A DNA stretch of 54,186 nt from Promethearchaeota archaeon (lineage in GTDB: Archaea; Asgardarchaeota; Lokiarchaeia; Sigyniarchaeales; SOKP01). The stretch covers positions 1 to 54,186 of the forward strand of contig JAHLWP010000031.1 in the NCBI GenBank assembly GCA_019057865.1, read 5' to 3'. Shown one piece after another: positions 31,612-33,176 of the stretch. Positions within the stretch are counted from its first letter, which is position 1. Each line of letters starts with the position of its first letter. Both the position numbers and the translations under genes were made by a program. Under the pieces are notes generated by a model. The model saw only the letters and a program-made list of their open reading frames with translations. It made no database searches and had not been told where the DNA came from.

Positions 31612-32169
31612 TTAAGCAAATCTCTGTTTTTCTTTATGTTCTTTCACTGAAACTTCTCTTTCACTAAGTCTGCTAAGTCTAATCAGACTCTCTGTAATAC
31701 TTTTAACTTCTACCCTCGTTTTTAGTTCAAAATCTTGTAATCCTTCAAAGATTTCTTTTTCGGTAAAACCTTTATTGTAAAATTCCATAAATTTAGCTAT
31801 TGACTGTTCATGATAATATATATACTGTTTATTTAGAAAAGTGATTAGCCAATTTTTCTTCTCCTGTTTTTGCGACAAATCAAACATCTCCTCTCTGATT
31901 TTATTAATTTTTTTCTTTAGCTTTTTAGCAATTATAGTATCTTCAATTCTATAATACTTTTTCATGAGTCTTATTAGTCTATTTTTGAAAAATAAAGCTG
32001 GTATATACGATAAAAGAAAAAAAACTATAAAAATCACACTTAATACTATAGCAGCTATATATTCTCTATATATAGTTAGAATGATAATTATTAATACAAG
32101 AATCCAAAACCAGTGTCTCCCAATTGTCTTAAAAATAACTATATACTTTTTTGGCATGAATATTATCAA
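31612..32169 (-). CDS. Hypothetical membrane protein (two N-terminal TM helices)
   Basis: Hydrophobic N-terminus and basic soluble C-terminus; the start is probably the ATG at 32157. Confidence 0.7.
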   Translation of the reverse strand: MIIFMPKKYIVIFKTIGRHWFWILVLIIIILTIYREYIAAIVLSVIFIVFFLLSYIPALFFKNRLIRLMKKYYRIEDTIIAKKLKKKINKIREEMFDLSQKQEKKNWLITFLNKQYIYYHEQSIAKFMEFYNKGFTEKEIFEGLQDFELKTRVEVKSITESLIRLSRLSEREVSVKEHKEKQRFA

Positions 32170-32277
32170 ATAAAGAATAATTCTGCAATATATATTGATA
32201 TAATAAATGATTTAAAAAAATTATTTTTAGATAAGTAAAAGAAAGAGATATCCTAAAAACCACATTTTTTTTAGCGT

Positions 32278-32428
32278 TTCCGGGATCCCGAACCACCTCG
32301 AAAATAGTTGGTTTTTCGGATGGGACCGGGTATTTTCCTCGAGTAACATGACCGTGAGCGAACTCACAATTTGCCATTTCCCACTGATCGCAACAGCAGT
32401 ACTATTGGACAACGTAAACGAGTTTAAC
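32278..32428 (-). rRNA. rrf: 5S rRNA gene, circularly permuted and intron-containing
   Basis: The minus strand reads the 3' half first (GUUAAACUCG...AGUAC...GGGAAA...UUGUGAG), then UUCG, then the 5' half (CUCACGGUCAU...AUACCCGGUCCCAUCCGAA[30 nt]CCCGGAA). These are hallmark 5S motifs in swapped order, in a GC-rich island within AT-rich DNA. Confidence 0.93.
32285..32314 (-). other. Predicted 30-nt BHB intron in 5S rRNA loop C
   Basis: Central helix UCCG/CGGG, bulges AAA and AUC, intron stem AACCA/UGGUU. Removal restores CCCAUCCGAACCCGG. Confidence 0.82.
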
Positions 32429-32479
32429 TTCCGGCGCTTAGCTAGCAGCTGATTATGTGGTATTAAACTATACTAACCA

Positions 32480-32487
32480 TTTTATAA
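32480..32487 (-). promoter_or_regulatory. Probable TATA box of the 5S precursor
   Basis: TTATAAAA on the minus strand, about 20-25 nt upstream of the ACCACAU arm (32461) that pairs with the trailer. Confidence 0.5.
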
Positions 32488-32606
32488 GTACGGTTATTTT
32501 ATTAAAAAATACCTTCCTATATGGTTATAAGTAAATGAAATAATAAAGACTAGTAATTAAATTTTTTCATACTAAAAGATTAACTTTAAAAGGAATAAAT
32601 CGAGAG

Positions 32607-33176
32607 GTGCTTGTAAAGTTGATATTTCAACTGATAATGCGAGATGCGGATTGGTATTGGTATTTAATAAATGCATTTATCGTGATTATTGGAAGGTTGC
32701 TTGATATACTTAGTACGAGATATGTATCAAAAGAACTTAAACTGGAGACAAATAAATTAGCAAGGCGTATAGGGTGGCGAGGAGTGATATTAATACAAAC
32801 TCCTATTATTGTTTTAGGGTCTTTAGATATTTACCTAGCATTTTTTATCTTTATTTGGTCTCTTTTCTTATTTGCTAATAATATTATGGGAAGCTGGAAT
32901 ACTAAGCAAATTGGTGAGGAGCAATATTATGAAGATCTTAAATCACGTTTAAAACAAACTAAGAGATGGCAAATTATTCTAAGCGAAATATCATATATTT
33001 TAACATTTACATTAACAGGGATCTTTGTTCTTGTGTTTTTATTAGTTTTTAATGATATTATTGCTGTTTTTTTTTTATCATTAGCTTTAATCTGTCAAGG
33101 TTTGTTAACGACCGCTAGATCCATGAAATACTTATTTGATTTAAAGAAAGAATCTCAAAAAAATAATGAAAATTAA
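32607..33176 (+). CDS. Hypothetical multi-pass membrane protein
   Basis: About five hydrophobic segments; DILSTRY...LETN motif. Confidence 0.75.
   Translation: MLVKLIFQLIMRDADWYWYLINAFIVIIGRLLDILSTRYVSKELKLETNKLARRIGWRGVILIQTPIIVLGSLDIYLAFFIFIWSLFLFANNIMGSWNTKQIGEEQYYEDLKSRLKQTKRWQIILSEISYILTFTLTGIFVLVFLLVFNDIIAVFFLSLALICQGLLTTARSMKYLFDLKKESQKNNEN

What the first reader, a model, noticed from the sequence alone, without database searches (positions are those of the whole stretch)
32259..32461. Circularly permuted 5S rRNA gene, predicted to mature as a covalent circle via a terminal bulge-helix-bulge
Seen: on the minus strand the 3' half of 5S comes first. Helix I is closed by a tetraloop (UUGUGAG-UUCG-CUCACGG, linker 32359-32362), and the 5' half follows. 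The leader reads AGCG-CCGG-AAG and the trailer reads CCGG-AAA-CGCU. These give an outer helix AGCG/CGCU, a 4-bp central helix CCGG/CCGG (32434-32431 with 32283-32280) and two 3-nt bulges. A further arm, ACCACAU/AUGUGGU (32461-32455 with 32265-32259), extends the stem. Established: the archaeal splicing endonuclease EndA cuts after the second bulge nucleotide and RtcB ligates. BHB-mediated circularisation is known for archaeal pre-16S/23S, permuted tRNAs and Thermoproteus SRP RNA, and permuted 5S genes are known from some mitochondria. Inference: cuts at 32429/32428 and 32278/32277 release 151 nt whose ligation junction CCCGGAA|GUUAAAC is the canonical 5S helix III sequence. After intron removal the product is 121 nt, or 117 nt if the UUCG is later clipped. 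I know of no described permuted archaeal 5S gene, and standard rRNA finders could miss or truncate it.
Basis: partly seen in the sequence, partly recalled or inferred. Interest (0 to 1): 0.97.

Follow-up and report, generated by a model that had tools for sequence, protein, structure and literature searches.

The report
Permuted, spliced, ring-forming 5S rRNA gene
This Loki-type Asgard archaeon encodes its only detectable 5S ribosomal RNA back half first, with a 30-base intron, between tRNA-splicing-type cut signals, so a normal 5S sequence can arise only if the transcript is cut and rejoined, most likely into a 121-base ring.

Summary
On the minus strand, 32461-32259 holds the 3' part of 5S, a UUCG loop closing helix I, then the 5' part. 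The unit lies between a leader and trailer that form AGCG/CGCU, CCGG/CCGG and two 3-nt bulges.

Rfam's 5S model finds no 5S anywhere in this 99.7%-complete genome. A model of the permuted core finds exactly one copy here. It also hits 118 of 131 sampled genomes of the family, and Odin- and Jord-type Asgard genomes.

Relatives use at least three different break points. Cutting after the second bulge base always restores the sequence that is contiguous in the other types and in ordinary archaeal 5S genes. Helix I, the central helix, the outer helix and the processing stem all covary.

The genome has RtcB and two EndA paralogues. A nested 30-nt relaxed BHB intron (32314-32285) sits in loop C.

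Cutting and joining are therefore inferred. Whether the ring is the final ribosomal form stays open.

No paper describing this was found. This scan has noted the same layout before on other DNA, in at least 129 genomes.

The parts
32480..32487 (-). TATA-like box TTATAAAA, about 19 nt upstream of the outer stem; presumed archaeal promoter of a stand-alone transcription unit
   Evidence: Read. The block AAAATAACCG..CTTATAWAATGG is conserved upstream of the homologous genes. Its function is inferred.
32455..32461 (-). 5' arm of the outer processing stem, ACCACAU
   Evidence: Pairs with 32265-32259 in the MFE and the centroid fold. The stem is 7-18 bp in relatives and covaries: CACAU/AUGUG, CAUAU/AUAUG, CGCAU/AUGCG, CACAA/UUGUG, CAGUUG/CAACUG.
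32439..32454 (-). Leader spacer with a small hairpin (AGCU-GCU-AGCU)
   Evidence: Hairpin seen in the MFE. Relatives carry a leader hairpin such as GUAGC-AAUUC-GCUAC at the same place. Role unknown.
32435..32438 (-). Outer BHB helix, leader strand AGCG
   Evidence: Pairs with CGCU 32276-32273. In 44 unique relatives, cognate leader/trailer pairs give 4.4 contiguous bp against 2.15 for non-cognate pairs, and 0 of 5000 shuffles reach the observed value.
32431..32434 (-). Central 4-bp BHB helix, leader strand CCGG; a surrogate of the helix III 5' strand
   Evidence: Pairs with 32283-32280. 41 of 44 unique relatives have 4/4 pairs. The second pair is C-G, U-G or U-A (CCGG/CCGG, CUGG/CCAG, CUGG/UCAG).
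32428..32430 (-). Leader bulge AAG; predicted cut between 32429 and 32428
   Evidence: The bulge is AA|G in 31 of 44 unique relatives. The cut position follows from the junction rule, which was cross-checked between break-point types.
32363..32428 (-). 3' part of 5S: end of helix III, helix II 3' strand, helices IV/V with loop E, helix I 3' strand
   Evidence: Matches positions 47-115 of an HMM built from colinear sister-family 5S genes. Helices covary.
32359..32362 (-). UUCG tetraloop joining the native 3' and 5' ends of 5S (closes helix I)
   Evidence: 49 relatives were scored automatically as having a 7-bp helix I closed by exactly 4 nt. Two more, mis-parsed by the script, read by eye as UACG loops. 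Loop counts: UUCG 28, UUAG 8, UUUG 7, others 6. Helix I is 100% paired, with 4 pairs showing compensatory change.
32315..32358 (-). 5' part of 5S: helix I 5' strand, loop A, helix II 5' strand, helix III 5' strand, loop C up to CCGAA
   Evidence: Aligns with the 5' part of colinear 5S once the gene is rearranged.
32285..32314 (-). 30-nt intron in loop C with a relaxed BHB
   Evidence: The central helix is UCCG (32320-32317) with CGGG (32290-32287). The bulges are AA|A and AU|C. The inner helix is AACCA/UGGUU. It is the best-scoring BHB in a scan, and the junction CCGAA|CCCGG is the sequence of intron-less relatives. Introns sit at the same site, with other sequences and a covarying inner helix, in genera g12 and g16.
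32278..32284 (-). 7-nt micro-exon CCCGGAA; its CCGG (32283-32280) is the trailer strand of the terminal central helix and also the helix III 3' strand
32277..32279 (-). Trailer bulge AAA; predicted cut between 32278 and 32277
   Evidence: Appears as a 3-nt bulge in the MFE. The bulge is AA|N in 35 of 44 unique relatives.
32273..32276 (-). Outer BHB helix, trailer strand CGCU
32259..32265 (-). 3' arm of the outer processing stem, AUGUGGU
32255..32259 (-). Run of five U directly after the stem; presumed archaeal oligo-T terminator
   Evidence: Its function is inferred.

Best explanation
This is the organism's real, and only detectable, 5S rRNA gene, encoded in circularly permuted order.

1. A transcript of about 205 nt runs from a TATA-type promoter to an oligo-U stop. 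It folds so that leader and trailer form a processing stem topped by a relaxed bulge-helix-bulge motif.
2. The splicing endonuclease cuts after the second base of each bulge (32429|32428 and 32278|32277). The genome has two EndA paralogues, one of which appears to lack the catalytic histidine, which suggests a heterotetramer.
3. RtcB joins the 2',3'-cyclic phosphate and 5'-OH ends of the excised 151-nt piece. This is the same fate as circular pre-16S/23S RNAs and tRNA introns, and it re-creates helix III.
4. A second relaxed BHB removes the 30-nt loop-C intron and joins CCGAA to the 7-nt micro-exon.
5. The product is a 121-nt covalent circle with a complete 5S sequence whose helix I is capped by UUCG.

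Shown here: the gene order, conservation, covariation, exactness of the junctions, and presence of the enzymes. Inferred: transcription limits, cutting, ligation, and the order of the two splicing events.

My odds are about 0.97 that this is the real permuted gene, about 0.85 that it is cut and joined, and about 0.55-0.6 that the ring itself is the ribosomal form.
For: (1) It is the sole 5S candidate. RF00001 finds nothing in the window or in the 99.7%-complete genome, even at E<=10. Model R1 of the permuted core finds exactly one locus (99 bits).

(2) An HMM built from colinear sister-family 5S genes scores the joined and spliced sequence at 44.3 bits over positions 4-114. With the intron kept it scores 28.1 bits. 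The genomic order scores 20.8 bits, covering the 3' part only.

(3) R1 hits 118 of 131 family genomes in 12 genera, two further families of the order, and Odin- and Jord-type genomes, including single-contig genomes. This excludes misassembly.

(4) The break points differ: GGAA|GUUAAAC, GGUC|CCAUCC, one in loop B, and GGA|AGUUAAGC. The cut-after-second-bulge-base rule always restores the sequence that is contiguous in the other types. The predicted 30-mer across both G000 junctions is found 30/30 in ordinary colinear archaeal 5S genes.

(5) Covariation supports the fold.
- In the 5S core, 96% of cells pair, 16 of 26 pairs show compensatory change, and 0 of 500 shuffles reach the observed values.
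- The central helix, outer helix and processing stem also covary.

(6) The genome has RtcB and two EndA paralogues.

(7) Strict hBHBh' introns at other 5S sites in relatives obey the same rule.

(8) The locus is an intergenic GC island (0.44-0.46 against 0.20-0.29) with a TATA-like box and a U-run.
Against:
- The terminal motif is relaxed. There is no clear inner helix: at most GUU/AAC, and only if the leader bulge is read as AA. In this genome the outer helix is only 4 bp and the processing stem 7 bp, the shortest seen in the family.
- The micro-exon CCGG has to serve two mutually exclusive pairings.
- The MFE does not show the intron BHB, and the z-score of the precursor fold is modest at -2.15.
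- RF00001 could not be run on the rearranged sequence.
Confidence: 0.8

Rival explanations
1. The circle is only an intermediate. After BHB cutting, joining and intron removal, an unknown nuclease opens the UUCG loop, and the ribosome receives an ordinary linear 5S of about 117 nt with native ends. Permuted tRNAs are matured from a circular intermediate in this way.
For: Permuted tRNA genes work like this (Soma 2007, as cited in PMC4267664). Circular pre-rRNAs are classically re-opened, and Pyrococcus 23S is re-linearised elsewhere (PMC7758197 and PMC12918454).
Against: - In all 51 relatives whose loop is uninterrupted, the link is exactly 4 nt and mostly a UNCG-type tetraloop. This is the signature of a structural cap rather than a processing site.
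- 5S needs no free ends, unlike tRNA.
- The Thermoproteus SRP RNA and, by a 2026 report, 23S rRNA stay circular.
- In genus g16 an insert in the helix I 3' strand looks like a relaxed BHB intron (3 of 4 central pairs). Its predicted removal would restore the closed loop.
Confidence: 0.27
2. The precursor is trimmed at the BHB but the ends are not joined. The ribosome would then carry a permuted linear 5S with a nick in helix III (and at the intron site), as in the permuted end product of brown-algal mitochondrial 5S.
For: Permuted 5S that stays permuted in the final RNA exists in stramenopile mitochondria (PMC4267664). Sequence comparison alone cannot tell a nick from a joint.
Against: - The 7-nt micro-exon would be lost without ligation, leaving helix III without its 3' strand.
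- Introns in relatives' 5S require ligation anyway.
- RtcB is present, and by established knowledge it joins both products of EndA cuts.
- The junction sequence is conserved as strictly as in colinear 5S.
Confidence: 0.05
3. The locus is a rearranged pseudogene or an assembly artefact, and the working 5S gene lies in an unassembled part of the genome.
For: The genome is a draft of 87 contigs with 5% contamination, and rRNA genes are often missing from such bins.
Against: - The same layout appears in more than 100 independent assemblies, including single-contig genomes.
- Compensatory changes occur in all helices.
- Promoter and terminator are conserved.
- No colinear 5S scored above the Rfam cut-off in any of the 24 genus genomes searched.
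Confidence: 0.02

Closest known systems
Permuted, circularised SRP RNA of Thermoproteus tenax (Plagens et al. 2015, eLife, PMC4731332)
   Same: An essential, universal structured RNA is encoded in permuted order. The new transcript ends form a splicing-endonuclease site. In Thermoproteus, joining of the ends restores the functional fold and the RNA stays circular.
   Different: The RNA here is 5S rRNA, a ribosome component. The trait spans whole Asgard families and classes rather than a few species. Break points vary between relatives. This gene also carries a nested BHB intron and a 7-nt micro-exon. Circularity is shown for SRP RNA but not here.
Circularly permuted tRNA genes (Cyanidioschyzon merolae; Soma et al. 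2007, cited in PMC4267664; archaeal cases recalled from memory: Thermofilum pendens, Chan et al. 2011)
   Same: The 3' half precedes the 5' half, the native ends are linked by a short loop, and a BHB at the new ends is cut and ligated into a circle.
   Different: tRNA circles must be re-opened at the acceptor ends by RNase P and tRNase Z. No such need or signal is evident for 5S.
BHB-mediated circular pre-16S/23S rRNA, permuted 23S of Pyrococcus, and circular 23S in ribosomes (PMC7758197; PMC12918454; bioRxiv 10.64898/2026.03.23.713588)
   Same: A processing stem with a BHB, EndA plus RtcB, and a circular rRNA species.
   Different: Those genes are colinear, so permutation (where it occurs) arises at the RNA level. 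The 2026 paper explicitly states that 5S is not known to circularise. Here the gene itself is permuted, which makes ligation obligatory.
Permuted mitochondrial 5S rRNA of brown algae and other stramenopiles (Valach et al. 2014, PMC4267664)
   Same: A 5S whose helix I is a closed hairpin and whose gene ends lie elsewhere in the molecule.
   Different: The organellar RNA stays permuted and linear, with no BHB and no ligation. Its ends lie at the three-way junction, not in helix III or loop C.

Membership tests
5S rRNA (Rfam RF00001) | Match to the family covariance model at or above the gathering score (38 bits) | tested here: not met
   No match on the genomic order, even at E<=10. This is expected for a permuted, intron-bearing gene. 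The model could not be run on the rearranged sequence with these tools.
5S rRNA (Rfam RF00001) | Full-length sequence similarity to bona fide 5S once the order is restored | tested here: met
   nhmmer with an HMM of 8 colinear sister-family 5S genes scores the joined and spliced sequence at 44.3 bits over positions 4-114 of about 118. Identity to individual genes is 53-63%.
5S rRNA (Rfam RF00001) | Three-way junction of helices I, II-III and IV-V, supported by covariation, with conserved loop A, C and E sequences | tested here: met
   The RNAalifold consensus gives the junction. 96% of cells pair and 16 of 26 pairs show compensatory change. The helix III/loop C 30-mer is identical to that of colinear archaeal 5S genes.
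Substrate of the archaeal splicing endonuclease (BHB motif) | A 4-bp central helix flanked by two 3-nt bulges on opposite strands | tested here: met
   CCGG/CCGG with bulges AAG and AAA. 41 of 44 unique relatives have 4/4 pairs with covariation, and the bulges are 3 nt throughout.
Substrate of the archaeal splicing endonuclease (BHB motif) | Both flanking helices present (strict hBHBh') | tested here: not met
   The terminal motif has the outer helix (4 bp) but no contiguous inner helix. The loop-C intron has the inner helix (5 bp) but no adjacent outer helix. Both are relaxed forms. By established knowledge, heterotetrameric EndA cuts such forms.
Substrate of the archaeal splicing endonuclease (BHB motif) | Cutting after the second bulge base gives a functional joined product | tested here: met
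   The junctions equal the contiguous sequence of genes broken elsewhere and of colinear 5S genes.
Substrate of the archaeal splicing endonuclease (BHB motif) | The enzymes are encoded in the same genome | tested here: met
   Two proteins carry PF01974 plus PF02778 (200 and 207 aa, 29% identical; the second has no His aligned to the presumed catalytic His). There is one RtcB (561 bits).
Substrate of the archaeal splicing endonuclease (BHB motif) | Actual cleavage at the bulges | not testable with these tools
   Needs an in-vitro assay or mapping of RNA ends.
Permuted RNA genes restored by circularisation (Thermoproteus SRP RNA type) | Swapped gene order with the native ends linked and a BHB at the new ends | tested here: met
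Permuted RNA genes restored by circularisation (Thermoproteus SRP RNA type) | Covalently circular RNA detected | not testable with these tools
A metagenome scan for the joined 30-mer returned only genomic colinear 5S genes of other archaea.

The most novel reading that the evidence does not exclude
The 121-nt covalently closed ring is itself the 5S rRNA that sits in the ribosome. Large parts of the Asgard archaea (most Loki-type families, plus Odin- and Jord-type lineages) would then make no linear 5S at all. Assembly of their large subunit would depend on the tRNA-splicing endonuclease and RtcB.
Probability: 0.55. Interest if true: 0.92.

Novelty: new variant of a known kind. Interest (0 to 1): 0.86.

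Why it matters
5S rRNA is a universal ribosome part. The reviewed literature states that archaeal 5S, unlike 16S and 23S, is not processed through circles.

If this reading holds, the closest prokaryotic relatives of eukaryotes build a core ribosomal RNA by obligatory cut-and-join splicing, in this species with a nested intron and a 7-base micro-exon. A circular 5S would be new to ribosome biology.

It also explains in practice why annotation pipelines report no 5S gene in many Asgard genomes, which lowers their 'high-quality MAG' status. The covariance model built here recovers these genes.

The varying break points give a natural experiment on how RNA genes become permuted once a ligation pathway exists. 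The palindromic CCGG of helix III, together with its native AA bulge, may act as a ready-made half of a BHB.

Tried and rejected
- **Rfam** at gathering and at E<=10. No 5S hit, only chance matches (CRISPR-DR62, ODC_IRES and others).
- **Metagenome scan** for the joined and spliced 30-mer, hoping for cDNA contigs. All 7 hits are long genomic contigs with ordinary colinear 5S genes of unrelated archaea. They serve only as a check of the junction sequence.
- **Pattern scan of 185,579 genomes.** The bacterial and Thermoplasmata hits were not matched by model R1; of these only one Thermoplasmata and one Chloroflexia hit were read, and both looked like chance matches. Absence outside Asgard is therefore not shown.
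- **Strict BHB scanner.** It finds the helix IV/V introns of relatives but neither the terminal motif nor the loop-C intron, which are relaxed forms.
- **Ancestral BHB around colinear 5S genes of the sister family.** Only AT-rich chance matches turned up. Those genes look like plain promoter-to-terminator units.
- **Family f4.** The permuted layout is clear, but I could not find a convincing outer helix.
- **Mechanical ORFs** of 82 and 61 aa overlap the RNA. I took them to be spurious and did not study them.

Full report
**Observation**

I read window 32650-32100 on the minus strand.
- ACCACAU at 32461-32455
- AGCG at 32438-32435
- CCGG at 32434-32431
- AAG at 32430-32428
- the 3' part of 5S, ending UUGUGAG, at 32369-32363
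- UUCG at 32362-32359
- CUCACGG at 32358-32352, followed by the 5' part
- CCGG at 32283-32280
- AAA at 32279-32277
- CGCU at 32276-32273
- AUGUGGU at 32265-32259, followed by five U

Cutting at 32429|32428 and 32278|32277 releases 151 nt. Removing 32314-32285 leaves 121 nt, or 117 nt without the loop.

The locus is intergenic, between ORFs 31612-32169 (-) and 32607-33176 (+). It is a GC island of 0.44-0.46 in DNA of 0.20-0.29. A TATA-like TTATAAAA lies at 32487-32480.

**Is it a 5S gene, and the only one?**

Rfam finds no family at gathering score in the window. It finds no 5S in 32000-32750 or in the whole 4.26-Mb genome (99.7% complete, 87 contigs), even at E<=10.

Sister-family genomes of the same order have ordinary colinear 5S genes scoring 53-69 bits, one of them as three tandem copies. 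I built an HMM from eight of these and scored three versions of the G000 sequence:
- joined and spliced: 44.3 bits as one alignment over positions 4-114
- joined but with the intron kept: 28.1 bits
- genomic order: 20.8 bits, covering the 3' part only

**Conservation**

All 24 same-genus genomes searched hold a homologous locus. I built an alignment of the shared core (3' part, loop, 5' part). It folds into the 5S three-way junction with helix I closed as a hairpin, and 16 of 26 pairs show compensatory change. On that structure 96% of cells pair, against 31-46% when partners are slid, and 0 of 500 shuffles reach the observed values.

The covariance model R1 built from this alignment gives these results:
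- one locus in G000 (99 bits)
- hits of 73-113 bits in 118 of 131 sampled genomes of the family, in 12 genera
- hits in two other families of the order
- only weak partial hits (30-33 bits) on the colinear genes of the sister family

Across the phylum it also hits small genomes whose records are named Odinarchaeia (4 of 4) and Jordarchaeia. Several carriers are single-contig genomes. Close relatives are labelled Promethearchaeota or Promethearchaeia, the current names for the Loki group. Misassembly and pseudogene readings are therefore excluded.

**The decisive comparison: different break points, one product**

- Part of the genus, like G000, is broken at GGAA|GUUAAAC, with leader AGCG-CCGG-AA|G and trailer CCGG-AA|A-CGCU.
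- Other species are broken at GGUC|CCAUCC, with leader GCG-CUGG-AA|C and trailer CCGG-UC|A-CGC.
- A third family is broken in loop B.
- Odin- and Jord-type genes are broken one base away (GGA|AGUUAAGC) and have perfect outer helices of 10-12 bp.

In every case, cutting after the second base of each 3-nt bulge and joining the ends yields the sequence that is contiguous in the other types. After rotation, the products of both types in the genus align as 5S of 116-118 nt. The 30-mer spanning both G000 junctions occurs 30/30 in ordinary colinear 5S genes of unrelated archaea.

**The BHB-type motif**

I tabulated 54 genes, 44 of them unique. The central helix has 4/4 pairs in 41 of the 44 and covaries: CCGG/CCGG, CUGG/CCAG, CUGG/UCAG. 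The outer helix covaries widely, for example GCG/CGC, ACG/CGU, CACUAGA/UUUAGUG, UAUCU/AGAUA and CCCAU/GUGGG. Cognate leader/trailer pairs give 4.4 contiguous base pairs against 2.15 for non-cognate pairs, and 0 of 5000 shuffles reach the observed value.

The outermost processing stem is 7-18 bp and also covaries. G000 has the shortest one. The minimum-energy and centroid folds of the 211-nt G000 precursor contain the stem, both BHB helices with the AAA bulge, and the helix I hairpin. The z-score is a modest -2.15.

The motif is relaxed. No inner helix follows the leader bulge, apart from a possible GUU/AAC if that bulge is read as AA.

The leader CCGG copies the helix III 5' strand, and the bulge AA copies the native AA bulge of helix III. 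The precursor therefore forms a surrogate helix III. I infer that the palindromic CCGG made this site easy to convert into a splice site.

**The nested intron**

The best BHB around loop C has these parts:
- central helix UCCG (32320-32317) with CGGG (32290-32287)
- bulges AA|A and AU|C
- inner helix AACCA/UGGUU
- 30 nt excised

The junction CCGAA|CCCGG is the sequence of intron-less relatives. The 3' exon is the 7-nt CCCGGAA. Its CCGG must pair alternately with the leader, in the terminal BHB, and with the helix III 5' strand.

Introns with other sequences and a covarying inner helix occupy the same site in two other genera. Strict hBHBh' introns of 29-30 nt sit at two sites in helix IV/V of other relatives. 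An insert that fits only a relaxed BHB (3 of 4 central pairs) sits in the helix I 3' strand in genus g16. All give canonical junctions under the same rule.

Notes from this scan also report many such mini-introns in this genome's protein genes and 23S rRNA. I did not test those.

**Enzymes**

The genome encodes RtcB (561 bits) and two EndA-family proteins of 200 and 207 aa, each with both Pfam domains and 29% identical to each other. In their pairwise alignment, the second has no histidine opposite the presumed catalytic His of the first. This fits a heterotetrameric enzyme. By established knowledge, that class accepts relaxed BHBs.

**Mechanism and open point**

In this layout the 5S occupies the topological place of a BHB intron, or of 16S/23S in their processing stems. 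By established knowledge, RtcB circularises such excised pieces. Ligation is also required to keep the micro-exon. I therefore put cutting plus joining at about 0.85.

Whether the ring is final is not settled. Three points favour a stable ring:
- The link between the native ends is exactly 4 nt in all 51 relatives with an uninterrupted loop. Most are UNCG-type: UUCG 28, UUAG 8, UUUG 7.
- 5S needs no free ends.
- The Thermoproteus SRP RNA stays circular.

Against it stand the tRNA and classical rRNA precedents of re-opening.

**Earlier notes from this scan**

The scan has noted the same layout on other DNA in at least 129 genomes. Some notes state that environmental RNA contains the rejoined ring, including a 121-nt form in a close relative. 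A later check priced 'the ring is the ribosome's 5S' at 35/100. These are untested leads, not support.

**Novelty**

Searches of the paper library for permuted or circular archaeal 5S found nothing. A 2026 paper states that circularisation applies to 16S and 23S 'but not 5S rRNAs'. The only permuted 5S described is organellar, linear and unligated.

The mechanism class, a permuted RNA gene repaired by the tRNA-splicing machinery, is known for tRNA and for Thermoproteus SRP RNA. I therefore rate this a new variant of a known kind. It applies to a universal ribosomal RNA, occurs across wide Asgard clades, and here includes a nested intron.

Noticed in passing
L020-L031, L012 (same genus); L096 (g17); L098 (g18): A second permutation point, GGUC|CCAUCC in loop C, is used by part of the same genus and by scattered other genera. 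This implies repeated switching of the break point, or an ancestral polymorphism.
   Followed up: partly
L010:1414-1508 (-) and flanks (family f3): A third permutation point lies in loop B (..CAUCGGAA|AACACCCGAAC..), and helix I is closed by a 7-nt loop. I could not draw a convincing BHB by eye.
   Followed up: partly
L115, L116, L120 (Odinarchaeia-labelled); L117, L118, L122, L128 (Jordarchaeia-labelled); L159 ('archaeon Dive96_bin3.136'): Permuted 5S genes outside the Loki group. The scanned Odin loci (L115, L116), the f23 loci L117 and L118 (read as Jord-type) and L159 have outer helices of 10, 12 and 5 bp and predicted rings of 121-122 nt. In the Odin loci and in L117/L118 the break is shifted by one base (GGA|AGUUAAGC).
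   Followed up: partly
L012, L018, L019 (after GUUGCGA); L078, L082, L083 (after CUGCA); L088, L090, L094 (helix I 3' strand): Relatives carry 29-31-nt inserts at three further 5S positions. Those in helix IV/V are strict BHB introns; those in helix I fit only a relaxed BHB (3 of 4 central pairs). The helix I insert lies next to the closing loop, and its predicted removal restores the closed hairpin.
   Followed up: partly
window 32439-32454 (-); same position in L020-L031: A small hairpin (for example GUAGC-AAUUC-GCUAC) is conserved in the leader between the processing stem and the BHB, with no counterpart in the trailer. Its function is unknown.
   Followed up: no
L033:1171-1770 (+) and L034:1189-1809 (+) (own genome, contigs C71 and C69): Two splicing-endonuclease paralogues, 29% identical. 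The second has no His aligned to the presumed catalytic His, which suggests a catalytic plus structural subunit pair.
   Followed up: partly
G032:C1:1399892-1400758 (L003): A sister-family single-contig genome has three tandem colinear 5S genes about 375 bp apart, each with its own TATA box and T-run and no BHB flanks.
   Followed up: partly
L104, L105 (family f4): Permuted 5S genes (44-46 bits with R1) with UGCG or CUCG caps and a 4-bp central helix visible by eye (CCGA/UCGG, CCGU/ACGG), but no outer helix that I could find.
   Followed up: partly
window 32129-32377 (-) and 32227-32412 (-): Mechanical ORFs of 82 and 61 aa overlap the RNA gene. A gene caller could annotate them as hypothetical proteins and so hide the RNA.
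   Followed up: no
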